A stretch of DNA of 64,000 nt from contig CAVTUH010000001.1 of the NCBI GenBank assembly GCA_963737835.1, forward strand, positions 2,914,022 through 2,978,021, given 5' to 3'. Shown here piece after piece: positions 505 through 63,626 of this stretch (its first letter is position 1; every line of letters starts with the position of its first letter). The stretch comes from an uncultured Gemmatimonadales bacterium. GTDB lineage: Bacteria > Gemmatimonadota > Gemmatimonadetes > Gemmatimonadales > Gemmatimonadaceae. The position numbers and the translations under genes are program-made. The notes beneath the pieces are model-generated. The model was given only the letters and a program-made list of their open reading frames with translations. It was not told the DNA's origin and did no database searches.

Positions 505-2052
505 TCAAGCCGTCGTTTGGTCCTTCGGAAACAACGGCTCTCCTCTCACCACCTTCCACCCCGTGGGATCGAGGGGCGCGGCCAGCTCGCCCACGCGTTG
601 GTCGTGGACGGACCCGGGAGCGCCGAGCTGCCGCCAGACCTCCTCAGCGCGGTCGGGCATGAATGGCGCGAGGTGGATGGCCTGCCGCGCCAACTGTCGC
701 ACCAGCGTGGCCAGCACGGCGTCGAGCGCCGGCCGCTGCGCCGGATCCTTCGCCAACTTCCATGGCGCCTGGCGGTCGACGTACTCGTTGGCTCGCGCGA
801 CCGTGGTCCACACGTGTCGCAGCGCCTCGTGGAGCAGGTACCCGCGGCCACCGTCCATCGCTTGGCGATAGCGCTCATAGTCGGCGGAATCCGCTATATC
901 GACCTCATTTGGCCGGCCAGATCGGACAGTACCGCCACAGTATCGCTCTACCATCGCGACGGTCCTACTCAGCAGGTTGCCGAATGCATTGGCCAGGTCT
1001 GCCGTATATCGCTCGTCGAAACGCTCCCACGAGAATGCGCCGTCGGCGTCGAACGGGATCTCGCGCAGCATGAAGTAGCGGAACGCGTCCGGGCCGTGAC
1101 GATCGATGGCTTCCGCGAGCTCTACACGGACCCCCGCGGATTTGCTGAATCGCTCGCCGCTCGCCAGCGTCACGAAGCCATGGGCCCACACGCGCTCGGG
1201 CAGCGGCAGCTCGGCGGCGCGGAGCATCGCCGGCCAGATCACACAATGGAAACGGGTAATGTCCTTGCCGATCACGTGGAGCTGCGCCGGCCATCGCCTC
1301 TCGAAGCCCGCGTCGGGGAACCCGGTCGCGGTCAGATAGTTGGGGAGGGCGTCGAACCAGACATAGGTCGTTTGCGGCTCGCCGTCACCCGTAGGACGTG
1401 GGAAGGGGATGCCCCACCCAAGGCGTGCCCGGCTGGCTGAAATGTCCTCGAGCCCTCCATCGAGGAGAGCCAGAATCTCGTTGCGGCGGCTCTCAGGAGC
1501 CAGGAAGCTCGGATGCTCGGCGAAGTGCGTGCGGAGGAAGTCCGTGTAGCGACTGAGGCGGAAGAACCAGTTCCGCTCTTCGACCCACTCGAGCGTTCGG
1601 GTGGGGTGCAGCACGCAATGCCCGTCCGAGATCTCGGCCTCCGTCTTGAATGCCTCGCACCCAACGCAATACCACCCCGAGTAGGTCTTCTGATAGAAAT
1701 CGTCGGGCGATCGCTCAAAGATCCGCTCGATGAGCGACCGCACGCCCGCGCGGTGCTCGGCCGCCGTGGTCCGGATGAACTGATCGTTCGAGATGCGGAG
1801 TCGTTCCCACGTGGCGGAGAACACGTCGGCGACGCGGTCCGTGAGCGCCTGCGGCGAGAGCCCCTGGGCGGCGGCGGCCTGGGCCACCTTCTGCCCGTGC
1901 TCGTCCATGCCGATCAGGAAGTGCACGGCGTCGCCGCGGAGCCGGTGGTATCTCGCGATGGCGTCTGCGCCGATCTTCTCTATCGCATGACCGAGGTGCG
2001 GGTCGCCATTCGCATAATCGATCGCGGTGGTGATATAGAACGGTCGGTTCAC
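505..2052 (-). CDS. metG: Methionine--tRNA ligase
   Basis: 515-aa ORF. Class I aaRS HIGH motif (HLGH) near the N-terminus and a KMSKS-like RFSKSAG motif. Overall MetRS-like sequence. Confidence 0.93.
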   Translation of the reverse strand: MNRPFYITTAIDYANGDPHLGHAIEKIGADAIARYHRLRGDAVHFLIGMDEHGQKVAQAAAAQGLSPQALTDRVADVFSATWERLRISNDQFIRTTAAEHRAGVRSLIERIFERSPDDFYQKTYSGWYCVGCEAFKTEAEISDGHCVLHPTRTLEWVEERNWFFRLSRYTDFLRTHFAEHPSFLAPESRRNEILALLDGGLEDISASRARLGWGIPFPRPTGDGEPQTTYVWFDALPNYLTATGFPDAGFERRWPAQLHVIGKDITRFHCVIWPAMLRAAELPLPERVWAHGFVTLASGERFSKSAGVRVELAEAIDRHGPDAFRYFMLREIPFDADGAFSWERFDERYTADLANAFGNLLSRTVAMVERYCGGTVRSGRPNEVDIADSADYERYRQAMDGGRGYLLHEALRHVWTTVARANEYVDRQAPWKLAKDPAQRPALDAVLATLVRQLARQAIHLAPFMPDRAEEVWRQLGAPGSVHDQRVGELAAPLDPTGWKVVRGEPLFPKDQTTA

Positions 2053-3458
2053 GACGTGCCCGGCGGCGGCGACGGCGGTGGACCGCCAGACGTGCCAGGC
2101 GAGCCGTCCGGCTGGTTCTGACCGTCGGGCGCGGGCGAGGCATTGCCGTTCCCACCCCCCTTCCCACGCCCGCGACGACCGCCGCGACGTCCTCGCCGTC
2201 GGCGCGGGGCACTACCCGCCGCAGCTGGCTCGCCAGGTTGGCCGGATGTTTGCGCCGCCGACCCGGGCGAGGGCGCATCCGACGCCGCCGCTTGAGTGGC
2301 CGCTGGAGTGCGAGGATCGGGCGCCGCCGGCGTCTCGCGACTCTCGCCTCGACGATCGCCACGGGCGCGCGACCGCGGCGTCCAGTCACCGCGGCCGACG
2401 CCTTCGGGGCCAGCGGCCCGGGAGCTCGCGCGTTGCGGGCCCGTCTCGCCGGTTGCACGCCGATCAGCGACGGCGGTGTCTTCGACCTCGAGATCGAGGG
2501 TGTCGACGCTCTGGTATGACTCGGTCACCTCGCTGACGAGCTCCGATTCCAACTCACTCGACTCGACTGATGCCGCGGCCTGGTCGGCCGAATCCGCTGC
2601 TGATGTCTCGGTGCCGGCGAGTGGCTGTCCGGCAGCGCCGAGCTCGCGCCGCAGCTGGGCGAGGGGGATGACCCGGCTCTCTCCGTCCGCAGAGCGAAGG
2701 GTGACCCGTTCATTGAAAATCTCGTTGGCGACGACTTTTTCCTCGCCGCGGGCCGTGACCAGGGTCCTCCCCTCCTTGGGAAATCGCTTGCGACTCTCGA
2801 CGTAGAGCTCGTGCTCATAGCGCAGACAACACATGAGTCGCCCACAGGCGCCGGAGATCTGCGAGGGGTTGAGCGAGAGGTGCTGATCCTTGGCTACGCC
2901 GAGATTGACCGGGCGAAGCTCGGGGAGCCATGACGCAGAGCAAAACTGCCGGCCACAGCGTCCAACGCCGTCCAGTCGCTTCGCCTCATCTCGCACGCCG
3001 ATTTGCTTCAACTCGATCCGCGCGCGGAAAGTCGCGGCGAGGTCCCGGACCAGATCCCGGAAGTCGACGCGTTTGTCGGCGGTGAAGTAGAAGGTGAGCT
3101 TCTTGCGATCCCACTGCCATTCGGCGTCGGACAGCTTCATTACGAGGCCATGCGTCTTGACCAGCCCCGCGGCTTTTTGACGGGCGGTCTCGTCTTGCGC
3201 CCGGACCTCCCGATGCTGCCGGAGTTCGCGGGTCGACGCGACACGCAGCGCCTTACGGGTTGGCTCGCCCGAGCCCAGCCCGTGTGAGCACCCTACGCAG
3301 CGTTTTTGCGCGTGGTCGCCCACCGCGTGCACGACGCCCAGGTCTTCACCGCGGTCTGCTTCGACAATGATCGAGGCACGGACCGCCGGTGGCTCCTCGC
3401 CATCCCAGCCGTAGAACTCTTTGCGATTGCCTTTGAATGCGACTTCAATCAAATGCAT
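2049..3458 (-). CDS. PSP1 C-terminal domain protein (RicT/YaaT-like) with a long disordered acidic then R/G-rich C-terminal tail
   Basis: N-terminal ~275 aa match the PSP1/YaaT family (cysteine cluster CxxC...CC). The last ~190 aa are low complexity (S/E-rich, then RRRRGRRGGRRGRGKGGG). The stop overlaps the metG start by 4 nt. Confidence 0.8.
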   Translation of the reverse strand: MHLIEVAFKGNRKEFYGWDGEEPPAVRASIIVEADRGEDLGVVHAVGDHAQKRCVGCSHGLGSGEPTRKALRVASTRELRQHREVRAQDETARQKAAGLVKTHGLVMKLSDAEWQWDRKKLTFYFTADKRVDFRDLVRDLAATFRARIELKQIGVRDEAKRLDGVGRCGRQFCSASWLPELRPVNLGVAKDQHLSLNPSQISGACGRLMCCLRYEHELYVESRKRFPKEGRTLVTARGEEKVVANEIFNERVTLRSADGESRVIPLAQLRRELGAAGQPLAGTETSAADSADQAAASVESSELESELVSEVTESYQSVDTLDLEVEDTAVADRRATGETGPQRASSRAAGPEGVGRGDWTPRSRARGDRRGESRETPAAPDPRTPAATQAAASDAPSPGSAAQTSGQPGEPAAAGSAPRRRRGRRGGRRGRGKGGGNGNASPAPDGQNQPDGSPGTSGGPPPSPPPGTS

Positions 3459-3463
3459 AAAAG

Positions 3464-3581
3464 CCAGGGATCAGGGGTCGGGTGTCAGGGGTCAGGGAAC
3501 GAACCGCGACGGCCAGTGGTGGTAACGGGCGACTGGCCTCAGGTGCAGTTCCCTGATCCCTGACCCCTGATCCCTGATCCC
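3464..3581. repeat. Composite hairpin element: (GGGRTCA)n arm, GC-rich central stem-loop, (TGAYCCC)n arm
   Basis: Left arm ccagggatcaggggtcgggtgtcaggggtcagggaac. Central ggccagt...actggcc stem. Right arm gttccctgatccctgacccctgatccctgatccc. It fills the accA-stop to yaaT-start gap exactly. Confidence 0.8.
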
Positions 3582-3614: not shown

Positions 3615-4586
3615 CTATTCAGAAAATTGCCCCATTCTAAAATACTTCTCGCGGCGGCGGCGGACGAGTTTGTCGGGCTTGAGGTGTCTCAAGTCGTCCA
3701 GGTTCCGGATGAGCGCCTGTTGAAGCGTCTTGGACATGACCTCATGGTCGGCCTGGGCTCCGCCGGCGGGCTCGGGCACGATCTCATCGACCACCCGCAA
3801 CTCGAGCAAGTCCTGCGCGGTGATATGTAGGGCCGAGGCCGCCTTTTCGCGCATCTCAGGACTCTTGCCGTCCTTCCATAGAATGATCGCGCAGCCTTCG
3901 ACGGTGATGACGGAATAGACGGCGTTCTCGAGCATGAGCACCCGATCGCCGACGCCCAGCGCGAGGGCGCCGCCCGATCCGCCCTCGCCGATGACCGTCG
4001 CGATGATCGGCACCTCGAGCCGGCTCATCTCATACAGGTTGCGTGCAATCGCCTCTGACTGGCCTCGCTCTTCGGCGCCCAATCCGGCCCACGCCCCTTG
4101 CGTGTCAATGAAGGTGATCACGGGCACGTGGAACTTCTCGGCCATTTTCAGCAGGCGCAGCGCCTTCCGGTAGCCCTCCGGGTGGGGCATGCCGAAGTTG
4201 CGGTGCAGGTTCTCCTTGGCATCGCGGCCCCGCTGGTGCCCGATCACCATGACCGTCTCGCCGTCGAGACGCGCCCAGCCGCCGATGATAGCTGCGTCAT
4301 CGCGGAACGCGCGGTCGCCGTGCAGCTCGATGAAGTCGGTGAGAGCGAGGCGGATGTAGTCGAGCGTGAACGGTCGCCTGCTGCTTCGCGCGACCTGCAC
4401 ACGCTGGAATGGCGTCAGGTTACGGTAGATCTCGGATCGCAGCTCGGTGAGCTTGCGCTCCAGCGGTGCGATTTCGTCGCTCACGTGCAACTGCTGATCA
4501 CCGGCCATCTTCTTCAACTCGTCGATCTGTCGCTCCAGCTCGACGATGGGACGCTCAAATTCGAGGGTGTTGGCGGATGTAGCCAT
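3615..4586 (-). CDS. accA: Acetyl-CoA carboxylase carboxyltransferase alpha subunit
   Basis: 323 aa, full-length AccA-like sequence (…IGEGGSGGALALGVGDRVLMLENAVYSVI…). Confidence 0.93.
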   Translation of the reverse strand: MATSANTLEFERPIVELERQIDELKKMAGDQQLHVSDEIAPLERKLTELRSEIYRNLTPFQRVQVARSSRRPFTLDYIRLALTDFIELHGDRAFRDDAAIIGGWARLDGETVMVIGHQRGRDAKENLHRNFGMPHPEGYRKALRLLKMAEKFHVPVITFIDTQGAWAGLGAEERGQSEAIARNLYEMSRLEVPIIATVIGEGGSGGALALGVGDRVLMLENAVYSVITVEGCAIILWKDGKSPEMREKAASALHITAQDLLELRVVDEIVPEPAGGAQADHEVMSKTLQQALIRNLDDLRHLKPDKLVRRRREKYFRMGQFSE

Positions 4587-4671: not shown

Positions 4672-4701
4672 ACAAGTGGCAAATCGACAAGTGGCAAATC
4701 G
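4672..4701. promoter_or_regulatory. Perfect 15-nt tandem direct repeat (ACAAGTGGCAAATCG x2) in the accA upstream region
   Basis: Two exact adjacent copies between the dnaE stop (4711) and the accA start (4586). This is a candidate operator or regulator binding site. Confidence 0.3.
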
Positions 4702-9607: not shown

Positions 9608-11637
9608 TCATGCGGATGATGCGGGTCGTTGGCGTTCGCCGATCCCGAATCCCCAATCGCGATTCTGCATCACCGACCGTAGATCCAGCGGCCCGACCGG
9701 TGACGGCCCGGTGGGTTCGGAGTCCGGGCGACCGATCACGATGGATTCCATCGTGGCGCGGACACCGCGGTCGAGGAAGCGCGAGAGCTGGTCGATGGAG
9801 TAGTTGGCGCCTCGCCTGCTGCCGTACACCTGCAACGGGTAGACGACCGCCAGGTGGTGCCGCGCCCGCGTGAGCGCGACGTACATCAGCCGGCGCTCCT
9901 CCTCGAGCCCGGCGTCATCATTGAGCGCGCGCGAGGTGGGGAACCAGCCGTCGACGGCCCAGATCAGGAACACCGCGTCCCACTCCTTGCCCTTGGCCGA
10001 GTGCGCGGTGCTCAACACGAGGACGTCCTCCTCCTCGTGGTCGCCGACGGCGAGGTCATGGGTGTTGGACGGCGGCTCGAGCGCGATCGCCGCGAGGAAC
10101 GCCGACCGGTTGGGATAGCCACTCGCGACGCGCTCCAGCTGATCGAGATCGTTGAGCCGCGGCTCGACCTGATCGTAGCGCTCCCGCAGGATGTCGTCGT
10201 ACAGGCGGCGCACTCGCGCGATGTCCGCGCTCACCGACACCGCCTGTTCGCCCGTCCGCAAGCCGTCGAGCAGGGTGACGAGCGCGTGGTGCGCCGCCCG
10301 CGCACGCGGCAGGCGCGGGATAGCGCGCGAACGCGGCCGACTCCCACGCCGCCTGCGCCATCGCGGCGATCGCGGCGCGCGCGGTGCGGTCGCCGATGCC
10401 GGGTAACAGCAACAGGATCCGATACCAGCTCACCTCGTCGCGCGGATTCTCGAGCACGCGGAGAAATGCGAGCACGTCCTTGACGTGCGCCGCTTCGAGG
10501 AAGCGGAGGCCGCCCCACTTCTCGAACGGGATCTTGCGATTGGCGAGCTCGATCTCGATGGCCGCCGACATGTAGCCGGCGCGGAACAGCACCGCCATCT
10601 CGCGAAGCGGCGTGCCGGATTCGTAGAGCTCGAGGATGCGGTCGACCACGAAGTGCGTCTGCTCGTCCTCATCGCGCGCCGTGACCAGCCAGGGTCGATC
10701 GCCGCCCGTGCGCGTCGGTCCACAGCTCCTTGGTGTATCGCTCCCGGGCGCGCGCGATGAGGGTATTGGTCGTGTCGAGAATCGGCTGTACGGAGCGGTA
10801 GTTCTGCTCGAGCGTGACCTGATGGGCGCCGGGAAACTGCTGCGGGAAATCGAGGATGTTGCGGAAGCTCGCTCCGCGGAACGAGTAAATGCTCTGCGCA
10901 TCGTCGCCGACGACCGTGACGTTGCTGTGCGTCTTGCAGAGGCCGCGGAGGATGCGGGCCTGCAGGACGTTGGTGTCCTGATACTCGTCGACCAGCACGT
11001 GGTCGTAGAGCGCAGCGATCCGCGCGCCGATCGGCGCCTCGAGCACGAGCGCCCAGAACACGAGCAGGTCATCGTAGTCGACCAGATTGCGATCGCTCTT
11101 GCGCCGCGTGTAGTCGACGAAGATGCGCCCGAAATCGGTCACGTACTCCGCGAATGCCGGATACTCCTCGTTCAGGATCGTGGCGACCGGAATCTCGGTG
11201 TTGATGTGCCGCGAGTAGACGTGGTGCAGCGTCTCCTTCTTCGGGAACCGCTTCGTCTTGTCGCCGTACCCCAATTGGACACGCGAGAGATGCATGAGGT
11301 CCTGGGCATCTTCCTGGTCCATGATCGTGAAGTCGCCGGGCAACCCCGCGGCCGGGCCAAACCGGCGCAGCAGCCAATGCGCAGTCGCGTGGAACGTGCC
11401 GCCGTGTACACGTTGACTGGCCGATCCGACGATCCGCTCGACGCGGCCGAGCATCTCCTGCGCTGCACGCCGCGTGAACGTGAGCAGCAGGATGCGCTCG
11501 GGCGTCGCGCCCCGCTCGATCAGATGCGCGACGCGATGGACGAGCGTGCGCGTCTTCCCCGTGCCCGCGCCGGCAATGATCAGCAGCGGCCCATCGCCGT
11601 GTGTCGCAGCGGCCTGTTGAGCGGGGTTGAGCGTCAT
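9608..11637 (-). pseudogene. uvrD: UvrD/PcrA-family DNA helicase, split over three reading frames (two frameshifts at about 10.25 kb and 10.70 kb)
   Basis: N-terminal part (ORF 10669-11694) has the Walker A GAGTGKT, the UvrD motifs and DEYQDT. The middle part is in ORF 10056-11072 and the C-terminal part (…LVLSTAHSAKGKEWDAVFL…YVALTRARHHL) in ORF 9608-10261. Frames are contiguous, so either single-base sequencing indels or a real pseudogene. Confidence 0.75.
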
Positions 11638-11757
11638 AGGGGGAAGATACGCCGAAGGGACGGGTTCGGGGGTCTGGGGTTTGGGGTGGCACAAATCGCG
11701 GGGTTAGTCGTGGCGCGCAGCGGGTGGCGGCCGGTGGCAAAGTGGGCGGCATGAATG

Positions 11758-11890
11758 CCGCCCCTACATGTCGGCGAGGCGGTACGACGTCCGGAGTACC
11801 GTGCCCGCCTTTTGCGGCGCAGGTCGACGAATCCAGGTATAGCGCCGCGCGCAGCAACATGTAGGGGCGACCTTCAGGTCGCCCATCTAC
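11758..11890. repeat. Composite inverted repeat (gcccctacatgt … acatgtaggggc) related to the REP family, with an ~85-nt insert
   Basis: Arms at 11760-11772 and 11857-11869 are reverse complements. It lies between the uvrD start and the lipB stop. Confidence 0.5.
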
Positions 11891-22832: not shown

Positions 22833-22876
22833 TCTGCTGTAGTCTGACCTGCTCCGACGACTGGCGCTAGCGCGCG

Positions 22877-23000
22877 TCGTAGATAGGGGAAAGGAGAGAG
22901 GAGAAAGGAGACCAGGACAGATACCTGCGAATCGTCGCGGTCGTTCCGACTCGCGCTGCGCGCGTCGCAGAAAGGAGAAAGGAGAGAGGAGAGGGGAGAC
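22877..23000. repeat. Two purine-rich GGA-repeat tracts (gaaaggagagaggagaaaggagacc; gaaaggagaaaggagagaggagaggggagacc)
   Basis: Same motif class recurs at 30433-30471, 33733-33765 and 53961-53992. Confidence 0.6.
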
Positions 23001-23376
23001 CAAGGCAGACACCGGCGAATCTCGCCGGCGGTTTCTCGAGGAGTACAGGCGTGCCGCGGATGGGGGTCTCAGCCTCCACGGCGGGGAGCGCTCGTTCTGG
23101 CTCGGCGACCGGGTCCTGGCGACGCCGTGGTAGTCAGTGGTCGAGCGCGCGGGGAGCGGGCCGGACCACAGTCCTTCGCCTCCGCAGGGTGCGAGGTCGA
23201 CGCGACCGCGTAAGTGCGGCCGATCACCGACAGCATCCCATTTCCGCACAGGGGGGCAGCCGCTAGGGCGGGATCTGGCGCGCCCGCCCGAAGCAACGAA
23301 CGAGAGCGTGTGAGGCGCAGGTGAATCGTCGAGAGCTCGAAGCGACTGAAGTGCGTCGCTCGGCACAGGGGCACAC

Positions 23377-30416: not shown

Positions 30417-30432
30417 CGGACGCTTCGCGCCC

Positions 30433-30471
30433 GAGAAAGGAGAAGCGCAGAAAGGAGAGAGGAGAAAACGG
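30433..30471. repeat. Purine-rich GGA-repeat tract
   Basis: gagaaaggagaagcgcagaaaggagagaggagaaaacgg immediately after the M28 peptidase stop. Confidence 0.55.
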
Positions 30472-30478
30472 CGGGACT

Positions 30479-30503
30479 GGGCGACGCGATGCGTCGCCTT
30501 TTG
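30479..30503 (+). terminator. Rho-independent terminator (REP-derived hairpin + TTTTG)
   Basis: gggcgacgcgatgcgtcgcc stem-loop followed by ttttg, 60 nt after the peptidase stop. Confidence 0.6.
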
Positions 30504-31420: not shown

Positions 31421-31534
31421 GGCAGGGGTCAGGGGTCAGGGGTCAGGGGTCAGGGAACAAACGACGAAGGCCGGTCGCTGTGCGATGCGACCGGCCTTCC
31501 GATTTGTTCCCTGACCCCTGACCCCCGACCCCCG
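31421..31534. repeat. Composite hairpin element: (GGGGTCA)4 G-quadruplex-type arm, 12-bp central stem, (TGACCCC)n arm
   Basis: ggcaggggtcaggggtcaggggtcaggggtcagggaac / gaaggccggtcg-ctgtgcgatg-cgaccggccttc / ttccctgacccctgacccccgacccccg. It occupies the whole gap between two convergent stop codons (31419 and 31538). Confidence 0.85.
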
Positions 31535-32464: not shown

Positions 32465-32720
32465 GTACGACCTCCTTAAAGCACTCGGGGCAAATGCGCT
32501 CCCCGCTTGGGAGCAGCACCATGTCAGTGGCGGCGTGAGGCCCGTGCACCGGGCACGTGCGCTCCGCCGCCTGCTCAATGAGGATGCGGTTGCGGGCCTG
32601 CCGCACTCGCAGCCCGAGTGGCGTGAATTGGAGGAGGGCGAAGACCGCGACAACCACTATTGTCGCGACGAGCCCTATAAAGAGTACGCCCTCAAGAACG
32701 ATCTCGACCATAGATAACAA
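32457..32720 (-). CDS. Small membrane protein with C-terminal zinc-ribbon (CPVHG…CPEC), SPFH-operon partner
   Basis: 87 aa, one TM helix. Overlaps the SPFH gene start by 8 nt. Plays an NfeD-like positional role. Confidence 0.55.
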   Translation of the reverse strand: MLSMVEIVLEGVLFIGLVATIVVVAVFALLQFTPLGLRVRQARNRILIEQAAERTCPVHGPHAATDMVLLPSGERICPECFKEVVHD

Positions 32721-32759: not shown

Positions 32760-32874
32760 GGGACGTTAGACGTTGGACGTTAGACGTTGGAGAACAAACC
32801 GCGAGGGCCGGCTTGCTTCACCGTGGCTGGACTCGAGGTTGTCTTCTAACGTCTAACGTCCAACGTCCAACGTC
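32760..32874. repeat. Composite hairpin element, (GACGTTR)n-arm variant
   Basis: gggacgttagacgttggacgttagacgttggagaacaaacc…central…ggttgtcttctaacgtctaacgtccaacgtccaacgtc. The right arm encodes the last 8 codons and the stop of the C26 peptidase gene. Confidence 0.8.
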
Positions 32875-33644
32875 TGCCGTGTCACTATCGCCTCGGCCAG
32901 CGCGGCGAAGAGCCCGTGGTCGGGGGCCTGGTCGTCGCGCACGAACTCCTCGGGATGCCACTGCACGCCCGTGAGCCACCAGCGGTCGTCATCGGCGCCT
33001 TCCACGGCTTCGACAATGCCGTCGGGCGCGGTCGCCGTCAGGACGAGCCCCGGCGCGAGACGGTCGATCGCCTGGTGGTGGACCGAGTTGACCTGCAGCG
33101 TAGTCGCGCCGAGCGCTCGCGCCACCCGCGAACCCTCGACCACTCGAACTGCGTGCGTGCGCGCGTTGCGCGGGGCATCAGGATCGTGTCCAAGCGCGTG
33201 CGGCCGCTCGCTCGGGATATCCTGAATCAGTGTGCCGCCGAGCGCCACGTTGAGCACCTGAATGCCACGGCAAATGGCGAGCGTCGGGAGTCCTCGCTGC
33301 GACGCCGCAAGGACCGCGGCGATCTCCGTTGCGTCACGCGCGGCGTTGGTTGGGCCCAGGTGCGGACTGGGCGAGGCACCATAGCGGGCAGGGTCCACGT
33401 CCTCTCCGCCGGTCAACACGAGCGCGTCGACCGCATCGAGCACGCGGCCGACCGCCGCCGCCACCGCCGATGCTGTCCCGTTGAACGGCGGAAGGACGAT
33501 GGGCACGAGCCGGGCGCGTTCCAGGATCGCGAGGTAGGCCGCCGGCAATCGCACCCGCGGAACACCGTCGTCGTCCGCGCGGATCGTCGCGGTCACCGCA
33601 ACGATCGGATGCTCGCTGTCCTGCTCGGTGAGGTGTCGAGGCAT
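32853..33644 (-). CDS. Class I glutamine amidotransferase-like / peptidase C26 (gamma-glutamyl hydrolase PuuD-like)
   Basis: Catalytic triad context …LAICRGIQVLN… and …HHQAI… typical of C26/GATase1. Confidence 0.8.
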   Translation of the reverse strand: MPRHLTEQDSEHPIVAVTATIRADDDGVPRVRLPAAYLAILERARLVPIVLPPFNGTASAVAAAVGRVLDAVDALVLTGGEDVDPARYGASPSPHLGPTNAARDATEIAAVLAASQRGLPTLAICRGIQVLNVALGGTLIQDIPSERPHALGHDPDAPRNARTHAVRVVEGSRVARALGATTLQVNSVHHQAIDRLAPGLVLTATAPDGIVEAVEGADDDRWWLTGVQWHPEEFVRDDQAPDHGLFAALAEAIVTRQTLDVGR

Positions 33645-33673: not shown

Positions 33674-33765
33674 GGGATCAGGGATCACGGGTCGGGGGTC
33701 GGGGGTCAGGGGACGGCGGCTAGCGCCGCCGTAGAAAGGAGAAAGGAGAGAGGAGAGAGGAGACA
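33674..33765. repeat. G-rich heptamer arm (gggatcagggatcacgggtcgggggtcgggggtcagggg), small hairpin, then purine-rich GGA tract
   Basis: In the divergent region between the C26 peptidase and the outer-membrane protein genes. The tract is gaaaggagaaaggagagaggagagaggagac. Confidence 0.6.
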
Positions 33766-35707: not shown

Positions 35708-35869
35708 TGGACGTTAGACGTTGAACGTTAGACGTTGGAAAACAACCCTCGAGGGCTAGCGGGATGCGCCGTGGCTGGCCTTCGAAATTTGTTTCCATCG
35801 TCTAACGTCCCAACGTCCCAACGTCCCAACGTCTAATGGCGGGCGACGCATTGCGTCGCCCCTACCCGC
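35708..35869. repeat. Composite hairpin element ((GACGTTR)n-arm variant) immediately followed by a palindromic REP-like copy
   Basis: ggacgttagacgttgaacgttagacgttggaaaac…tttccatcgtctaacgtcccaacgtcccaacgtcccaacgtc, then ggcgggcgacgcattgcgtcgcccctacccgc. Confidence 0.8.
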
Positions 35870-35921
35870 TGGGTAGCAAGCGCCGTGGTCGTTCCCCTAA
35901 CCCCTACGTCCCGACCTTCAG

Positions 35922-46911: not shown

Positions 46912-47541
46912 TCAGGCGGTGAGAGAAGGCGCGAGGGCTTCGGCTTCGCGCGTCAACTCTGCCCAGACCTCCGCGACGCGGGCATCCAGCGCTTCGAGCG
47001 AGCTGGTATTGTCGATCACGAAGTCCGCGCGTGCGCGTTTGAGTTCGGCGGGCATCTGCGCAGTGATCATGTCGAGGGCTTCAGTCTCATGCAACCCCCG
47101 CTCGCGAACCAGGCGCTCGAGCCGAAGGGGGCGCGGCGCGTCGATGAGTACGATCCGGTCAAACTCGTCGGCCAGCCGTCGCTCGAACAGAAGGGGGATA
47201 TCACAGACGATCACGCGCTCTCCGCGCGCGCGCGCCTGGGCGACCTGTTCGTTCCGCAGCCGGGTGACGGCTGGGTGGACGATGCGGTTCAACTCCTCGA
47301 GCTCGTCCTGATCGTGAAACACTCGCCGGCGGAGAGCGGCGCGGTTGAGGACGCCGTCCGCCGAGATCACCTCGGCACCCCAGCGTTCGGCGATCCGCTG
47401 GAGGGCGGGTGTACCTGAATCCACGGCCCTGCGGGCGAGCTCGTCGGCGTCGATGACCGTCGCCCCCAGTTCCCGGAGGCGGCGGGCAACGGTGGACTTG
47501 CCGCTGGCAATGTTGCCTGTCAAGCCGACGACGAGGGCCAT
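46912..47541 (-). CDS. coaE: Dephospho-CoA kinase
   Basis: Walker A GLTGNIASGKST and CoaE layout. 209 aa. Confidence 0.9.
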   Translation of the reverse strand: MALVVGLTGNIASGKSTVARRLRELGATVIDADELARRAVDSGTPALQRIAERWGAEVISADGVLNRAALRRRVFHDQDELEELNRIVHPAVTRLRNEQVAQARARGERVIVCDIPLLFERRLADEFDRIVLIDAPRPLRLERLVRERGLHETEALDMITAQMPAELKRARADFVIDNTSSLEALDARVAEVWAELTREAEALAPSLTA

Positions 47542-47546
47542 CAGGA

Positions 47547-47570
47547 CAGGGGTCAGGGTTTGGGGTTAGG
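47547..47570. repeat. G-quadruplex-type heptamer arm abutting the coaE start codon
   Basis: caggggtcagggtttggggttagg begins 6 nt from the coaE ATG. Confidence 0.5.
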
Positions 47571-47755
47571 AGTCAGCAACCACAGGCTCGGGCGGGAACG
47601 ACTCGCCGCGTTGGCCCCCGGGCCCATCGCCCTCAAACAGGGGAGGACCGGGTACCCATCATCGCGGCTAATCTAAGGCAAATACGCGGTTCTTGCCTGA
47701 TTTGCTGAGAACGCATGGTTTACGCGGGCGATAAACAAATGGCGGTCTTAAACCG

Positions 47756-47930
47756 CGAGGGCGACGCATTGCGTCGCCCCTACCCGCCGAACCCTCGACC
47801 TCGTGCGGTCGGTGCCCAAGACGACGAAGGGCGACGCAGGCGTCGCCCCTGCCTGTGATCCGCGGCCTCGTGCGGTTGGTGCGAACCGACGAAGGGCGAC
47901 GCAGGCCCCTACGCCGTCGAACCGGTGGGG
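47756..47930. repeat. Tandem array of three ~65-bp units, each containing a palindromic REP-like core (gaagggcgacgca…gtcgcccct) plus a conserved cctcgtgcggtYggtgc spacer
   Basis: Units start at 47756, 47827 and 47891. The spacers are mutually similar, so this is not a CRISPR array. The third unit overlaps the 3' end of the AraC-type ORF. Confidence 0.7.
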
Positions 47931-50494: not shown

Positions 50495-50520
50495 CTGGCC
50501 CCGCGGGCGCGTTCGCGCCC

Positions 50521-50560
50521 GAGAAAGTAGAAATACGGAAAGTAGAAAGTAGACTTAAGA
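50521..50560. promoter_or_regulatory. AT/purine-rich divergent promoter region with three GAAAGTAGAAA direct repeats
   Basis: gagaaagtagaaatacggaaagtagaaagtagac sits in the 124-bp gap between divergent genes (50494 and 50619). It is the lowest-GC stretch in the window. Confidence 0.4.
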
Positions 50561-50618: not shown

Positions 50619-51803
50619 ATGACTGCTACAGCACCGCCTGCCTCGTTTACCCCCTCAGCGAACGTCGCTCAGCTCAAGGAATCGGCGACCATCGCCGTGT
50701 CCGCACGGGCGCGTGCGCTCCGGGCGGCTGGGCGCAGGATCCTCGACCTCGGGGCCGGCGAGCCCGATTTTGCGACCCCGCGCTTCATTTGCGACGCTGC
50801 GGAGCGGGCTGTGGCGGCGGGTGCGACGCGATACACCGCGACGGAAGGGATTCAGCCGTTGCGCGAGGCGATAGCCGCCGAGGCCAACGCGCTCTACCGC
50901 GGGCCGGATCCAGTTACCGCGGCGGACGCGGTCGTGTCGAATGGGTCGAAGCAGGCGCTATTCAACGCGTGCTTCGTGCTCTTTGGAGAGGGCGACGAGG
51001 TCCTCATCCCCACGCCGGCCTGGACGAGCTACTACGAGATCGTCTCGCTGGCGAGGGCCAAAGCGGTACCGGTGTTCGGCGACGGGTCGCGCGGACTGAA
51101 AGCGACCGCCGCACAGTTGGTTGCGGCGGCGACTCCGCGGACGCGCGGCCTCATCCTCAACTCACCGTGCAATCCCACCGGCGCGGTCTACACCGAGCAG
51201 GAGCTACGCGACATCGCGTCGGTCGCCGCCGAGCGCGGATGGTGGATCATCTCGGACGAGATCTATCGCCGAATTGCGTACGAGGATCCGGCCTCGTCCG
51301 TCCTCGATGTGGTCAACGAACGCGACCGGGTCGTCTATGTGAACGGCGTCGCGAAGGCGTACGCGATGACGGGTTGGCGCATTGGCTGGGCGGTCGCGCC
51401 GCGGGCGGTGGCGCAGGCCATGGGCGCGCTCCAATCGCATACAACGTCGAACGCGGCCAGCATGTCGCAGCACGCGGCCCTCGCGGCTTTGACCGACACG
51501 GCCGCAGCAGAGCCGGCGATCGCTGCCATGGTCGAGCAATTCCGAGCGCGCCGCGACGCCGCGCTCGCCTTGCTCGACGCGGCGCGGGTGCAGTACGTGC
51601 GGCCGGGCGGCGCGTTCTATCTCTACATCAACGTGGGTCGTGACGGCGGTGCATTTGCCACGGAGCTGATGGACGCGCACGGAGTGGCGGTCGTGCCAGG
51701 TGCGGCTTTTCTCACGCCGAACTGGGTCCGTGCATCTTACGCCGCGCCCATGGAGACGGTGTTGGAGGGCGTGAAGCGGGTGGTGGAACTCATTGGGACG
51801 TAG
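50619..51803 (+). CDS. Aspartate/aromatic aminotransferase (class I PLP-dependent)
   Basis: 394 aa. PLP-lysine region …YVNGVAKAYAMTGWRIGW… and typical AspC fold motifs. Confidence 0.9.
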   Translation: MTATAPPASFTPSANVAQLKESATIAVSARARALRAAGRRILDLGAGEPDFATPRFICDAAERAVAAGATRYTATEGIQPLREAIAAEANALYRGPDPVTAADAVVSNGSKQALFNACFVLFGEGDEVLIPTPAWTSYYEIVSLARAKAVPVFGDGSRGLKATAAQLVAAATPRTRGLILNSPCNPTGAVYTEQELRDIASVAAERGWWIISDEIYRRIAYEDPASSVLDVVNERDRVVYVNGVAKAYAMTGWRIGWAVAPRAVAQAMGALQSHTTSNAASMSQHAALAALTDTAAAEPAIAAMVEQFRARRDAALALLDAARVQYVRPGGAFYLYINVGRDGGAFATELMDAHGVAVVPGAAFLTPNWVRASYAAPMETVLEGVKRVVELIGT

Positions 51804-51830
51804 GGCGTCGCATGCGTCGCCCCTACCCGA
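51801..51830. repeat. Palindromic REP-like element overlapping the aspC stop codon
   Basis: tagggcgtcgcatgcgtcgcccctacccga. Confidence 0.65.
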
Positions 51831-51916
51831 CCATCAGCGGGAACGCGCGGGCGGCGGTTCTTGCGTCCCGATTTCGAGGTCTTCCTTTCCAACGTCCAAC
51901 GTCTCACGTCCAGCCT

Positions 51917-53936: not shown

Positions 53937-53992
53937 CGCCGCGCGCACACGCGCGGCGTAGGAAGGCGAGAGGAGAAAGGAGAGAGGAGAGT
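53937..53992 (+). promoter_or_regulatory. 9-bp GC hairpin directly after the nurA stop, followed by a purine-rich GGA-repeat tract ending at the herA start
   Basis: cgccgcgcg-caca-cgcgcggcg, then aggaaggcgagaggagaaaggagagaggagag. Possible attenuator or translational control region. Confidence 0.35.
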
Positions 53993-56039
53993 GGACGGAA
54001 TCAACAACGAGGGGCGCGTGGTGACCGGCGAGGTCGAGGGTGACGAGGGGACAGGAGAGGCGCGAGAGGCACTGGGTTCGTCAGACCACCCGCTCGAGCC
54101 GCTCGGTCGCGTTGTCGCGACGGAGCGACGACCCAGCACGCCGCACGAGTTTCATTTTTGGACGGCGCTCAATGCAGCGGTGGGGATCGGGACGATCGTG
54201 CGGGTGGAAGGCGGACCAACGGTCAATGGGGTCGTGCCGCGAGTCTATGGCGTCGTGGTCGAGGCGATCGGCTACACGGACCTCCAGTCGCCGCTGCACG
54301 ATGTGATGGGGTTCGACGGGTCCCCGGCGCACGCGCCGCTGGCAACGACGGAGCGAACGGAGATCCGTCTGTATACCGCCGCGGTACTGCGCCAGATACC
54401 GGAAGAGCCGATGCAACCGGTTCCGATGGGGATGGTCTTTCTGGCCGACGATGATGACGTCGCGTGTGCGCTCCGTATGGATGGGTACATCGCGGCGGGA
54501 TCACGCAACGCGATCCCCATCGGGGTCTACCACGGCGGGGGGATCGACGCGCCAGTCTATCTGGACGCGGACTTTCTGTTGGGTCCCGAAGCGGCGCATC
54601 TCACCGTGACGGGCGTCTCGGGTCTCGCGACCAAGACGAGTGCGGTCGAGTGGCTGCTGGCATCGATTTTCGCCCACTTTCCGGCCGACAAATCGGTCGC
54701 GGCCGTCTGCTTCAACGTGAAGGGGCCAGACCTCTGCTTTCTCGACCAGCCTGCGACGGATCTGGCAGACGCCGATCGCGCGTTGTACGAGAAGCTCGGC
54801 GTACCGCCCACGCCGTTCCGCGACGTGCAGTACTTCGCGCCGTATCGGGCCGAAGGGTACACCCTCAACACCTTGCGATCGAACGAGGCCCTCGAGCACA
54901 ACGTGACGCCGCTCGCGTGGGGGCTGCGCGAAGTCATGGAGTACGCCGACGTCCTGCTGAATCGCGAGGACGTCAATGCGAAGGCGGATGCGTTGATCGA
55001 CTTCATTCGCGAGCGAGTCGTGGGTCGCCAGTTCACCGACCCGGTGCTGAAGGACACCTACTCCGTGCAGTCGTTCAGCGATCTCGAACAGTGGTTTCGC
55101 GACCTGCTGGAGCAGCTCGAGCAGCGCAATCACGAGAGCTGGCGCACGCATCATGTGGCGACGCTCCGGAAAATTCGGAACCGGCTGATCAACATTGCCC
55201 AGCGGTGCGCGGGGCTGGTGACTTCGGCAGGCGATGCGAGCGACCTGCCGTGGGGGCACTTTCGCGATCGAACGGTGTACGTGATCGACGTCGCCAATCT
55301 CGAGCAGGACGCGCAGGATCTGATCTTTGCGCGCGTGGTGTCGCAGTTACGCACCTACCTCGAGCGGCGAGACCTTGGCGTGAAGCACCTCGTGGTCTTT
55401 GTCGACGAGCTCAACCGCTACGCGCCAACCGATGGACCCGAGACGTATGTCCGGAAGATGTTGCTCGACCTGGCAGAGCGGGGGCGGTACCTGGGCCTCG
55501 TCTTGTTCGGGGCGCAGCAATTTCGGTCACAGGTGCATCGCCGAGTGGTCGGGAACGCGGGTACGCAGGTCTTCGGGCGCATGGATGCCGACGAGCTCGC
55601 GTCGCCGGGATACGCGGTGCTGAGTCCGGCGATCCGGACGAAGCTCGCAACGCTTGAGAAAGGGCAATTGATGGTACGTCATCCGCATTTCACGCAGCCA
55701 ATTTTCGTTCGGTTCCCGCGACCGCCGGTCCTGTCGGGCCGTGAGGGGGTCGAGCGGTTCCCGGCGGCGGAGCCTGTGCCGCCTGCGGTGGCGGTGACGC
55801 GCCGCTTGCGCCGGCTCGATTCCACGATCACGCTCGAATGGGTCAAGCAGCACACGGAACTGTACGAGCCCGAGGAGGTCTTGCACGCGTGTCAGCTGGC
55901 GGAGCTCAGGAAGCCCAACGACGTGCGCGCGTTCATTCAGCACCAACTCCGACGCATCGTGCCGACGCGCCCCGCTGCGCAGCCGGAGTTCCTCGTGCCG
56001 TTGCACGCGCTGCCTAGCGCCAATCCGTACGGCGTTTGA
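53991..56039 (+). CDS. herA: HerA-like hexameric ATPase/helicase (HAS-barrel + RecA-like ATPase)
   Basis: N-terminal HAS-barrel-like segment (HEFHFW…GTIVRV…VYGVVVEAIGY). P-loop-like GVSGLATKTS. Walker B VVFVDELNRY. ATQRP-like …LFGAQQFRSQ…. 682 aa. Confidence 0.6.
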   Translation: MDGINNEGRVVTGEVEGDEGTGEAREALGSSDHPLEPLGRVVATERRPSTPHEFHFWTALNAAVGIGTIVRVEGGPTVNGVVPRVYGVVVEAIGYTDLQSPLHDVMGFDGSPAHAPLATTERTEIRLYTAAVLRQIPEEPMQPVPMGMVFLADDDDVACALRMDGYIAAGSRNAIPIGVYHGGGIDAPVYLDADFLLGPEAAHLTVTGVSGLATKTSAVEWLLASIFAHFPADKSVAAVCFNVKGPDLCFLDQPATDLADADRALYEKLGVPPTPFRDVQYFAPYRAEGYTLNTLRSNEALEHNVTPLAWGLREVMEYADVLLNREDVNAKADALIDFIRERVVGRQFTDPVLKDTYSVQSFSDLEQWFRDLLEQLEQRNHESWRTHHVATLRKIRNRLINIAQRCAGLVTSAGDASDLPWGHFRDRTVYVIDVANLEQDAQDLIFARVVSQLRTYLERRDLGVKHLVVFVDELNRYAPTDGPETYVRKMLLDLAERGRYLGLVLFGAQQFRSQVHRRVVGNAGTQVFGRMDADELASPGYAVLSPAIRTKLATLEKGQLMVRHPHFTQPIFVRFPRPPVLSGREGVERFPAAEPVPPAVAVTRRLRRLDSTITLEWVKQHTELYEPEEVLHACQLAELRKPNDVRAFIQHQLRRIVPTRPAAQPEFLVPLHALPSANPYGV

Positions 56040-60626: not shown

Positions 60627-60657
60627 GGGTTTGGGGTCTGGGGTTTGGGGTCTGGGA
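60627..60657. repeat. G-quadruplex-type heptamer arm (gggtttggggtctggggtttggggtctggg)
   Basis: Lies between the sbcC stop and the GNAT start. Four or more G-runs of 3-4 separated by 3 nt. Confidence 0.6.
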
Positions 60658-60699
60658 ACGACGACGGCAACTACGTCTGGTGGCGAAGGGAGAGCGGTG

Positions 60700-62760: not shown

Positions 62761-63626
62761 TGTACATCCCCCGCCAGTGGCGAACGGCATTCCCGATCAC
62801 GCTCGTGGCCTGCATCGGCCTGGGAGTCGCGCTCGTGCTGGCTCTCCAACGCGGCCAGCTCTCAGTCGCAGTTGTCTGCGGCGGCGCGATCACCGGGCTA
62901 CTGTCGGCGATTGCCTGGACGTTGAGGCATTTCGCTCCCCGGGGTTCAGCGGCGCTCGTCGGGCCCGCCGCAGTGCCGGCGATCCTCCTCTGGCTCATGA
63001 GCCCAAGCGCGGGGGTAGCCAGCGTCGGCGTGGCGGCCGGCCTCTTCGCGACCTGGTTCATTATCTACGACTTGGGTATCACTGCCAGAGCCAATCGGGA
63101 GGTCGTGTCTCGCATCGTGTCGGTCGGCTCTGCCGCCGGTCGCCCGCGGGTGCTGATCGTCTACCACTCCACCCATGGCCAGTTTCAGCCGATGCTGCAG
63201 CGGGCGCTGGCCGAGGGGCTCCAGTCGCAGGGATGGGCGATCGACATGACGACGGCGAGCCGGGCGACGCCGCGCGACTTATCCGCCTACGATCTCTTGG
63301 TGCTTGGCGCGCCCTCCTACAACTGGCAGCCGGCCAGACCGACGCTCAGCTACCTGGATCGGCTCGGCGATCTCAACGGGATGCCCGTCGCCGTAGTGGT
63401 CTCCGGCGGCGGCATGACGGATCGCGCGGCGAAGATCTTATCGGAGCGCGTCACGCGGGCGCGCGGGCGCCTCGTCGAAGCGCTCGAGGTGTGGAGCACA
63501 CGATCGAACGTCGAGCACTCGGGCCTCAGTGATCCCCAGGAGATCATGCGACGCGCAGGTGCGCGCCTGGCGCAATCTCTCGGAAAATGTCGCACGAGCC
63601 TACGGGGATCAGGGGTTAGGGACTAG
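62757..63626 (+). CDS. Membrane protein with C-terminal flavodoxin-like domain
   Basis: Four predicted TM helices followed by …RVLIVYHSTHGQ… and …LLVLGAPSYNW… flavodoxin-fold motifs. Confidence 0.6.
   Translation: MMYIPRQWRTAFPITLVACIGLGVALVLALQRGQLSVAVVCGGAITGLLSAIAWTLRHFAPRGSAALVGPAAVPAILLWLMSPSAGVASVGVAAGLFATWFIIYDLGITARANREVVSRIVSVGSAAGRPRVLIVYHSTHGQFQPMLQRALAEGLQSQGWAIDMTTASRATPRDLSAYDLLVLGAPSYNWQPARPTLSYLDRLGDLNGMPVAVVVSGGGMTDRAAKILSERVTRARGRLVEALEVWSTRSNVEHSGLSDPQEIMRRAGARLAQSLGKCRTSLRGSGVRD

What the first reader, a model, noticed from the sequence alone, without database searches (positions are those of the whole stretch)
3464..3500. Arms of the elements are textbook G-quadruplex motifs, and isolated arms abut start/stop codons
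(GGGGTCA)4GGG at 31421-31457, GGGTTTGGGGTCTGGGGTTTGGGGTCTGGG at 60627-60657, and similar runs at 3464-3500, 11657-11688, 33674-33712, 47547-47570 and 63603-63623 each have four or more G3-4 tracts with 3-nt loops. The complementary strands are i-motif-type C-runs. Isolated arms sit 0-6 nt from the yaaT and coaE start codons and run through the stop of the flavodoxin-like gene at 63624. In a 68% GC genome G-runs are common, but the strict heptamer periodicity and the positioning argue for selection. DNA or RNA G4 formation could modulate transcription termination or translation initiation of the neighbouring genes.
Basis: partly seen in the sequence, partly recalled or inferred. Interest (0 to 1): 0.55.

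Follow-up and report, generated by a model that had tools for sequence, protein, structure and literature searches.

The report
Heptamer-repeat arms of intergenic hairpin elements
The G-rich runs are real, but they are one flavour of the seven-base tandem repeats that flank terminator-like hairpins between genes in this Gemmatimonadaceae genome; pairing of the two arms, not G-quadruplex formation, is what is kept, and G-rich heptamer repeats of this kind have been described in other bacteria.

Summary
The G-runs exist at the stated coordinates. Canonical G4 motifs are enriched in intergenic DNA (8 observed, 0.97 expected), and 7 of those 8 are heptamer arrays.

The heptamer period is not specific to G-rich sequence. 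The window has 15 period-7 arrays against 0.3 expected, in three unit families: GGGGTCA, GACGTTR and AGAAAGG.

Four complete elements share one plan: arm, conserved A-tract/GC-hairpin/T-tract core, complementary arm. They fold into roughly 41-46-bp hairpins (-66 to -102 kcal/mol), and G4 never enters the predicted structure.

After the orthologous Band_7 stop codon, related genomes carry elements with entirely different units (CGGGTTC, CAGCGAT, AGAAAGG, TGGTGAT and others). The arms are complementary in nearly every one.

The arms next to the yaaT, coaE and uvrD start codons are C-rich in the mRNA, so an RNA G4 cannot form there. They are absent at the same sites in close relatives.

G-rich heptamer repeats with G4 formation in vitro, inverted pairs and the same orientation bias were published for Xanthomonas and Nostoc (Rehm 2015).

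Verdict: a new member of a known kind. G4 potential is probably incidental. The likeliest role is a long 3'-end or terminator hairpin on a dispersed, fast-evolving repeat.

The parts
3465..3500 (+). Element A, left arm: about 4.7 heptamers (GGGATCA/GGGGTCA) plus the GGGAAC junction. This is the finding's own coordinates.
3501..3547 (.). Element A core hairpin (GGCCAGTGG...CGACTGGCC).
3548..3581 (+). Element A, right arm: GTTCCC plus (TGAYCCC)n, 88% complementary to the left arm. The element lies between the accA stop (3615) and the yaaT start (3458), both on the minus strand.
11657..11687 (+). Isolated G-family arm, a right-half remnant with a cgatttgtGCC junction when read on the minus strand. 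It lies 19 nt upstream of the uvrD (-) ATG and is C-rich in that mRNA.
31423..31455 (+). Element E, left arm: (CAGGGGT)4.7.
31456..31508 (.). Element E core: A-tract, 13-bp GC hairpin (31466-31499), T-tract. Flagged terminator-like on both strands.
31509..31534 (+). Element E, right arm: (CCCTGAC)3.4. The element sits between convergent stop codons at 31419 and 31538.
32761..32875 (.). Element F: the same plan with non-G4 arms, (GACGTTA/GACGTTG)4 - core - (TAACGTC/CAACGTC)4. The right arm supplies the stop codon of the Peptidase_C26 gene (32853).
33674..33712 (+). Isolated G-family arm, 29 nt upstream of the Peptidase_C26 (-) ATG and C-rich in that mRNA.
33713..33763 (+). GC hairpin (ACGGCGGC-TA-GCGCCGCCGT) followed by an (AGAAAGG/AGAGAGG)4.4 array.
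35710..35833 (.). Element H: (GACGTTA/G)4 - core - right arm of an 8-mer (AACGTCCC)3.8, between convergent stops at 35705 and 35922.
47542..47576 (+). Degenerate G-family arm abutting the coaE (-) ATG at 47541. It has only 3 G3+ tracts and is C-rich in the mRNA.
51888..51912 (+). Isolated right-type arm of the GACGTT family (TCCAACG)3.6, between convergent stops.
60627..60659 (+). Isolated G-family arm (GGGTTTG/GGGTCTG)4.3 plus GGGAAC, 11 nt after the sbcC stop and 40 nt before the GNAT ATG (60700). It is the only arm that is G-rich in a sense transcript and also predicted to form an RNA G4.
63603..63623 (+). Three heptamers (GGGGATC AGGGGTT AGGGACT) forming the last codons and the TAG of the flavodoxin-like gene. 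Not a canonical G4 motif.
22881..22999 (+). Two AG-family arrays, each preceded by a GC hairpin, inside an 88-bp tandem duplication (22858-23025).
30433..30467 (+). AG-family array 17 nt after the M28 peptidase stop, followed by a REP-like hairpin with a T-tract (30479-30499).
50522..50553 (+). AG-family variant (AGAAAGT) after the GC hairpin CGGGCGCG-TT-CGCGCCCG.
53963..53995 (+). AG-family array after the GC hairpin ACGCCGCGCG-CACA-CGCGCGGCGT.

Best explanation
The G-runs are the G-rich arms of a family of dispersed intergenic palindromic elements (about 110-125 bp) in a Gemmatimonadaceae genome.

Anatomy. Each complete element has a conserved core: an A-tract, a 10-13-bp GC hairpin and a T-tract (GGGAAC-AAAC-CGA-RGGCCRG...CYGGCCY-TCG-TTTGTTCCC). 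The core looks like a bidirectional intrinsic terminator. It is flanked by 3-5 tandem heptamers on one side and their reverse complement on the other.

What is shown. The heptamer unit changes between copies and between genomes. The 7-nt period, the copy number, the arm complementarity and the position just after stop codons are kept.

What is inferred.
- The working unit is the long hairpin, most plausibly in RNA, acting as a transcription terminator or 3'-end protecting stem between transcription units.
- The arms grow and are homogenised by replication slippage.
- The arms are kept complementary by selection on the stem, by intrastrand template switching, or by both.
- Isolated arms are decayed half-elements.
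- G-quadruplex potential is a by-product of one unit family, not the selected property.

The confidence of 0.55 covers the whole statement. The anatomy and the claim that G4 is not the conserved feature would rate about 0.85. The terminator or 3'-end role would rate about 0.4.
For: Period and families. Period-7 arrays: 15 observed against 0.3 expected, in three unit families, essentially all intergenic.

Complete elements. Four share one plan. They fold into hairpins of roughly 41-46 bp, MFE -66 to -102 kcal/mol on both strands, with or without G4 allowed in the model.

Core. Cores from the window and from other Gemmatimonadales genomes align to one consensus. The hairpin has 12 pairs, 7 of them with compensatory changes. 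The core of element E is flagged terminator-like on both strands.

Position. All four complete elements follow a stop codon: two lie between convergent genes and two between co-directional genes. Element F lies upstream of a conserved promoter-like motif of the next gene.

Orthologous site after the Band_7 stop.
- The window has GGGGTCA/TGACCCC.
- L179 (93% identical protein, homologous core) has CGGGTTC/GAACCCG.
- L117 has CAGCGAT; L119 and L120 have AGAAAGG; L126 and L128 have TGGTGAT. These loci, and L129, L130 and L133, have complementary arms.
- L124 (GGCGATT) has a weaker right arm, and L127 (GACGGTT) shows no clear complementary array.
- Fold z-scores range from -3 to -15.
- Some relatives instead have a plain GC hairpin with a T-tract there.

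Dispersal and slippage. The copy at 31423-31532 is 89% identical to a copy in another genome with no flanking synteny. Copy number is polymorphic between near-identical contigs, (GCTACCC)5 against 4.
Against: - There are no expression data, so termination or RNA stabilisation is inferred from anatomy and position only.
- The T-tracts are weak, and only one of the four cores passed the simple terminator scan.
- Element A ends about 6 nt before the yaaT ATG inside the conserved dnaE-accA-yaaT gene order. A strong terminator or a 40-bp stem there should be polar or should block initiation.
- Arm complementarity could be maintained purely mechanistically, with no selection.
- Nothing here explains why the period is 7.
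- The AG-family arrays in this window have no complementary partner.
Confidence: 0.55

Rival explanations
1. First reader's view. The arms are selected because they fold into G-quadruplexes (or i-motifs) in DNA or RNA, and these modulate termination or translation initiation of the neighbouring genes.
For: - Canonical G4 motifs are about 8-fold enriched in intergenic DNA.
- G4Hunter scores reach 1.9-2.5 on the arms.
- With G4 allowed, the model puts a G4 in the MFE of the isolated arms at 11657, 33674 and 60627 when the G-rich strand is folded.
- Related repeats (GGGAATC, GGGGAYT) form G4 in K+ by CD, and show the same orientation bias and a preference for 4 units (PMC4692102).
- In every complete G-family element the G-rich arm is 5' on both strands. 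A transcript that ends at the core would therefore carry an unpaired G-arm.
Against: - The same architecture, period and 4-5 copies occur with non-G4 units.
- Units are replaced at the orthologous site with pairing mostly kept.
- G3 units are not over-represented.
- The arms at the yaaT, coaE, uvrD and C26-peptidase starts are C-rich in the mRNA.
- 47547-47570 and 63603-63623 are not canonical G4 motifs.
- The hairpin out-competes G4 in complete elements.
- The arms are absent at the same starts in close relatives.
- Rehm et al. found no regulatory role.
Confidence: 0.1
2. Purely selfish or neutral DNA. A REP- or MITE-like mobile palindrome, or a slippage-prone hotspot, that spreads and turns over with no host function. 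Positions after stop codons would simply be where insertions are tolerated.
For: - Copies are dispersed with 79-89% identity and no synteny.
- The conserved core is combined with different arms.
- Termini AACGGCG...CGCCGTT recur outside the arms in several copies.
- Presence and absence differ between close relatives at the accA-yaaT, C26-Band_7 and coaE sites.
- Each genome reuses its own unit at several loci.
- Genuine REP-like sequences are nested in, or lie next to, the elements.
Against: - No target-site duplication was seen and no transposase was linked.
- An element is found at the same Band_7 3' site in many relatives, where element-free relatives have an ordinary terminator-like hairpin. 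This suggests the site needs a hairpin.
- This explanation and the best one are not mutually exclusive, as with REP elements.
Confidence: 0.25
3. The heptamer arrays are binding sites for a multimeric nucleic-acid-binding protein with a 7-nt footprint per subunit (cold-shock-domain or S1-type proteins, or a global regulator). The period would reflect the protein rather than the DNA polymerase.
For: - The period is strictly 7 nt and arms have about 4-5 units whatever the sequence.
- Units are genome-specific and reused at many loci.
- Precedent proposals exist: TAACTGA repeats as Csp/S1/CsrA sites (PMC4679880), and Geobacter paired heptamer and octamer sites annotated as putative global-regulator sites (PMC2700814).
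Against: - Several unrelated units coexist in one genome, which would need several specificities or none.
- Arms are predicted to be double-stranded in complete elements.
- No candidate protein is linked.
- Not testable with these tools.
Confidence: 0.08

Closest known systems
G-rich heptameric simple sequence repeats of Xanthomonas (GGGAATC) and Nostoc (GGGGA(C/T)T), Rehm et al. 2015, PLoS One (PMC4692102)
   Same: Tandem heptamers with a G3-4 tract; intergenic; about 4 units preferred; frequent convergent inverted pairs (70-75 in Xanthomonas). The G-rich strand is antisense upstream of ORFs and sense after stop codons. Length and sequence vary between close relatives. Function unknown.
   Different: The unit here is GGGGTCA/GGGATCA/GGGTTTG and the phylum is Gemmatimonadota. 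The arms flank a conserved terminator-like core. They coexist with non-G families of the same design, and orthologous sites show the unit being replaced. That argues against G4 as the selected feature.
Heptanucleotide repeats in other bacteria: cyanobacterial STRR (own knowledge, Mazel 1990), TAACTGA repeats of Beggiatoaceae and cyanobacteria (PMC4679880), Geobacter metallireducens 4x GGGACCG and paired 5x MTYCTGA sites (PMC2700814). Heptamers are the commonest long SSR class in prokaryotes (Mrazek 2007, as cited in PMC4679880).
   Same: 7-nt period, 2-6 or more copies, intergenic, close to start or stop codons, genome-specific units, sometimes in inverted pairs, function unresolved.
   Different: Those reports treat arrays mainly as direct repeats or as regulator sites. 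Here both arms are tied to a shared core hairpin, and they co-vary.
REP/REPIN elements
   Same: Short dispersed intergenic palindromes, often at 3' ends of genes, forming long hairpins. In enterobacteria they act as mRNA stabilisers or terminators (own knowledge).
   Different: The elements have no GTAG head and their arms are tandem heptamers. Separate REP-like sequences (GTAGGGGCGACGC-loop-GCGTCGCCC) are present in the window and are nested in some copies elsewhere.
Bidirectional intrinsic (Rho-independent) terminators
   Same: The core is an A-tract, a GC-rich stem-loop and a T-tract, located between convergent or co-directional genes.
   Different: The stem is extended to roughly 41-46 bp by repeat arms, so the T-tract is itself paired in the full fold. 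Activity is untested.

Membership tests
G4-forming heptameric SSRs (Rehm 2015 class) | Tandem heptamers giving at least 4 G3+ tracts with short loops | tested here: met
   Met for 5 of the 7 listed runs and for 2 C-strand arms. Not met for 47547-47570 and 63603-63623.
G4-forming heptameric SSRs (Rehm 2015 class) | Over-representation in non-coding DNA | tested here: met
   Intergenic: 8 observed against 0.97 expected. Coding: 4 against 1.96.
G4-forming heptameric SSRs (Rehm 2015 class) | G-rich strand antisense upstream of ORFs and sense downstream of stops; inverted pairs occur | tested here: met
   4 of 4 start-proximal arms are antisense, 2 of 2 stop-proximal arms are sense, and there are 2 G-family inverted pairs. 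Caveat: every isolated G-arm is also on the G-skewed plus strand.
G4-forming heptameric SSRs (Rehm 2015 class) | G4 folding of the oligonucleotide in K+ (CD or melting) | not testable with these tools
   Only a thermodynamic prediction is available. G4 enters the MFE for isolated arms at 11657, 33674 and 60627, and never for complete elements.
Bidirectional intrinsic terminator | GC-rich stem-loop followed by a T-tract on both strands | tested here: inconclusive
   Element E passes on both strands. The core consensus has an A-tract and a TTnCGnTTTGTT tail. Elements A, F and H were not flagged, because their loops are longer than 8 nt or their T-tracts are weak.
Bidirectional intrinsic terminator | Located downstream of stop codon(s), at the end of a transcription unit | tested here: met
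   All 4 complete elements qualify: 2 convergent, 2 co-directional, none between divergent genes.
Bidirectional intrinsic terminator | Termination activity | not testable with these tools
   Needs Term-seq or reporter assays.
REP/REPIN | Conserved GTAG head followed by an imperfect palindrome | tested here: not met
   The heptamer elements lack it. Separate REP-like sequences with GTAGGGG occur at 11743-11885, 35841-35870, 47758-47906 and 51800-51826.
REP/REPIN | Cognate RAYT transposase in the genome | not tested
   Only 64 kb is available and no search was made.
MITE | Terminal inverted repeats with target-site duplications | tested here: inconclusive
   Termini AACGGCG...CGCCGTT recur in several copies. 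No target-site duplication was seen on inspection of the flanks.
Rfam RNA families | Match at gathering score | tested here: not met
   0 matches in the whole window.

The most novel reading that the evidence does not exclude
Heptamer-armed palindromes may be a distinct class of intergenic element found across many phyla. In this reading the repeat unit is rewritten concertedly on both arms, within a genome and at orthologous sites, by a dedicated or strongly biased process such as templated arm-to-arm copying. The 7-nt period would then reflect that machinery rather than chance slippage. The exact 19-mer GGGTCAGGGGTCAGGGAAC occurs in Gemmatimonadota, Acidobacteriota, Planctomycetota, Nitrospirota, Pseudomonadota, Chloroflexota and Cyanobacteria.
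Probability: 0.2. Interest if true: 0.7.

Novelty: new member of a known kind. Interest (0 to 1): 0.35.

Why it matters
Bacterial heptanucleotide repeats have been recorded in cyanobacteria, Geobacter, Xanthomonas and Beggiatoaceae in the literature found here, and no function or mechanism is established in it.

This window and its relatives offer a natural experiment. At one orthologous position the unit sequence is replaced many times, while the period, the copy number and the arm complementarity mostly persist. That separates "the hairpin is what matters" from "the G4 is what matters". It also makes the question directly testable, using arm-swap reporters and 3'-end mapping.

For the finding as submitted, the practical message is caution. 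G4 motif counts in GC-rich bacterial intergenic DNA can be driven entirely by one family of a more general repeat class.

Tried and rejected
- Rfam at gathering thresholds on the whole window gave no match.
- Conservation of the yaaT-proximal arm: the orthologous accA-PSP1 spacers in L112, L114 and L115 lack it.
- Conservation of the coaE-proximal arm: L192, L193 and L194 lack it. P0133 returned no DNA.
- Source contig of the window: only a 2.9-kb Logan contig that breaks at the element was readable.
- I considered a strict rule that the G-rich arm is always 5'. It holds for the G-family and for most pairs, but L146 and L151 have slightly C-rich left arms and L117 is neutral. It is reported as a tendency only.
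- I considered AG-rich arrays acting as Shine-Dalgarno sites and rejected it. They lie 66-130 nt from the nearest start, or follow a stop codon.
- An exact-string literature search for the GGGGTCA repeat found nothing relevant.
- A first run of the composition test failed on a formatting error and was repeated.

Full report
**What is in the sequence**

The window is 66.5% GC. AccA and CoaE homologues 82-98% identical to the window's proteins are named Gemmatimonadaceae by their sources.

The G-runs are at the stated coordinates. Five are canonical G4 motifs: 3467-3497, 11657-11686, 31425-31455, 33674-33712 and 60627-60656. Their partners at 3551-3581 and 31509-31533 are the C-rich equivalents. 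Two listed runs, 47547-47570 and 63603-63623, have only three G3+ tracts.

The gene labels are correct:
- PSP1/yaaT, 2049-3458(-)
- AccA, 3615-4586(-)
- UvrD N-terminal part, 10669-11637(-)
- CoaE, 46912-47541(-)
- SbcC, 58132-60615(+)
- GNAT, 60700-61674(+)
- Flavodoxin_5, 62757-63626(+)

**Is it more than chance?**

Yes. Using a rough GC3-based gene map, intergenic DNA (8.5 kb) holds 8 G4 motifs against 0.97 +/- 0.95 expected from Markov-2 shuffles. Coding DNA holds 4 against 1.96.

Seven of the eight intergenic motifs are heptamer arrays, and the heptamer signal is the more general one. There are 15 period-7 arrays against 0.3 expected, while periods 4-6, 8-13 are at background.

The arrays fall into three unit families:
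- GGGGTCA and its variants
- GACGTTA/GACGTTG
- AGAAAGG/AGAGAGG

Only the first can form G4. Every family has about 4-5 units per arm, so "four units" is not a G4 signature here.

**Anatomy**

Four complete elements share one plan:
- A, 3465-3581
- E, 31423-31534
- F, 32761-32875
- H, 35710-35833

The plan is: left arm, a GGGAAC-type junction, an A-rich linker, a GC hairpin, a T-rich linker, GTTCCC, then a right arm complementary to the left.

Cores from the window, from L179 and from the Gemmatimonadales MAG CAWKMU01 align to one consensus. The predicted hairpin has 12 pairs, 7 of them with compensatory changes. The same core type occurs with different arms: F and H have GACGTT arms, while L077 has GGGRTCA arms. 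The core of E is flagged terminator-like on both strands.

All four elements fold into hairpins of roughly 41-46 bp, with MFE -66 to -102 kcal/mol on either strand. Allowing G-quadruplexes in the model does not change any of these structures.

The isolated arms look like half-elements. The arm at 11657-11687 keeps the cgatttgt junction, and the arm at 60627-60659 keeps GGGAAC.

**Position and strand**

All four complete elements follow a stop codon. E and H lie between convergent genes. A and F lie between co-directional genes. F precedes a conserved promoter-like motif of the Band_7 gene.

The arms that "abut start codons" (yaaT, coaE, uvrD and the C26 peptidase) all belong to minus-strand genes, while the G-run is on the plus strand. 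Those mRNA leaders therefore carry the C-rich strand, and no RNA G4 can form there.

Only the arm after sbcC (60627-60656) is G-rich in a sense transcript and also predicted to form a G4. The run at the flavodoxin stop is on the sense strand but is not predicted to fold.

This orientation pattern is the one Rehm et al. reported. A caveat applies. GC skew is positive across the whole window, and all isolated G-rich or purine-rich arrays have that strand on the plus strand. A replication-linked bias would explain the pattern equally well.

**Comparative evidence**

The exact 19-mer GGGTCAGGGGTCAGGGAAC occurs in more than 110 loci from many phyla, often mixed with other heptamers and often in inverted pairs. 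The copy at 31423-31532 is 89% identical to a copy in CAWKMU01 with no flanking synteny.

A metagenome scan with the Band_7 protein gave 76 orthologous loci. Directly after the Band_7 stop codon, facing the conserved convergent gene, the arms differ from genome to genome:
- the window has GGGGTCA/TGACCCC
- L179 (93% identical protein, homologous core) has CGGGTTC/GAACCCG
- L117 has CAGCGAT
- L119 and L120 have AGAAAGG/CCTTTCT
- L124 has GGCGATT
- L126 and L128 have TGGTGAT/ATCACCA
- L127 has GACGGTT
- L129, L130 and L133 have further variants

In most of these the two arms are complementary. L124's right arm is only loosely complementary, and L127 shows no clear complementary array. Fold z-scores range from -3 to -15. 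Some relatives have only a plain GC hairpin with a T-tract at this site, or almost no spacer.

In 406 kb of these loci there are 27 period-7 arrays. Sixteen have a complementary partner within 250 nt, 5 are canonical G4 motifs, and 7 have a G3 or C3 unit. Base composition alone predicts 33% with such a unit.

Each genome reuses its own unit at several loci. Near-identical contigs differ by one unit, (GCTACCC)5 against 4.

The arms next to the yaaT and coaE starts are absent from relatives whose flanking proteins are 84-93% identical.

**Interpretation**

What persists is a long palindrome with 7-nt periodic arms at the ends of transcription units. G-richness does not persist.

I therefore read the elements as REP-like dispersed palindromes built on a bidirectional terminator-type core. 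Their arms are fast-evolving heptamer simple sequence repeats. The functional unit, if there is one, is the hairpin. G4 potential is incidental.

The following steps are inferred, not shown:
- termination or 3'-end protection
- growth of the arms by slippage
- the way complementarity is maintained (selection, template switching, or both)

The 7-nt period remains unexplained. The only published idea I found is a polymerase-footprint slippage hypothesis, cited in PMC4679880 and PMC4692102.

**Comparison with what is known**

G-rich heptamer repeats have been published for Xanthomonas and Nostoc, with in-vitro G4 and i-motif formation, inverted pairs, a four-unit preference and the same strand bias; no function was found (PMC4692102). 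Heptamer arrays are also described in Beggiatoaceae and cyanobacteria (PMC4679880). Geobacter metallireducens has 49 copies of 4x GGGACCG and paired sites of 5x MTYCTGA (PMC2700814).

The finding is therefore a new member of a known kind. The element fails the REP definition (no GTAG head), is inconclusive as a MITE, and has no Rfam match. The replacement of units at an orthologous site is the one aspect I did not find in the literature I could search.

Noticed in passing
window 11743-11885, 30479-30499, 35841-35870, 47758-47906, 51800-51826: REP-like hairpins (GTAGGGGCGACGC-loop-GCGTCGCCC, read on one strand or the other). They occur as an inverted pair at 11743-11885 and as a 65-67-bp tandem array at 47751-47906. 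The same sequence is nested inside heptamer elements of the Gemmatimonadales MAG CAWKMU01 (for example L004, L069, L094).
   Followed up: partly
window 22860-22999, 30420-30467, 33713-33763, 50500-50553, 53940-53995: Every purine-rich AGAAAGG-type array is immediately preceded by a short GC hairpin, and all six have the purine strand on the plus strand. In relatives L119 and L120 the same unit forms complete palindromes with CCTTTCT arms.
   Followed up: partly
window 22858-23025: An 88-bp tandem duplication (1.9 copies, 85% identical) of a hairpin plus AG-array unit, inside an 820-nt stretch where my rough gene map calls no gene.
   Followed up: no
window 32655-32700 and loci L116-L125 upstream of Band_7: A conserved motif, CCGAAAC-N(~17-20)-CGTATTGTT, ends about 7 nt before the Band_7 ATG across relatives. 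It looks like a promoter giving a leaderless or near-leaderless mRNA. A similar conserved CTTAGATTAG lies about 135-180 nt upstream of coaE in the window, L192 and L193.
   Followed up: no
window 32845-32874 and 63603-63626: Heptamer arrays supply the stop codon and the last few codons of the Peptidase_C26 and flavodoxin-like genes. Because 7 mod 3 = 1, a unit containing a stop triplet (TGACCCC, GACGTTA|G) closes all three reading frames within three units.
   Followed up: partly
whole window: GC skew is positive throughout, yet most genes from 0 to 50 kb are on the minus strand, which would be head-on to replication if the plus strand is the leading strand. All isolated G-rich or purine-rich arrays have that strand on the plus strand.
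   Followed up: partly
window 4672-4701 (also in L111): A perfect 15-bp direct repeat (ACAAGTGGCAAATCG x2) in the dnaE-accA spacer.
   Followed up: no
window 9608-11637: The UvrD helicase N-terminal domain ends at a 322-aa ORF (10669-11637, minus strand). The rest of the helicase may lie in a separate ORF downstream, which would mean a frameshift or a split gene.
   Followed up: no
loci L121, L127, L120: Some relatives carry very long arrays at the Band_7 3' site: (TGGACTA)15 or more running off the contig end, (GACGGTT)8, and an 85-nt CCTTTCT-type arm. Contigs often break at these arrays, so assemblies probably under-represent them.
   Followed up: no
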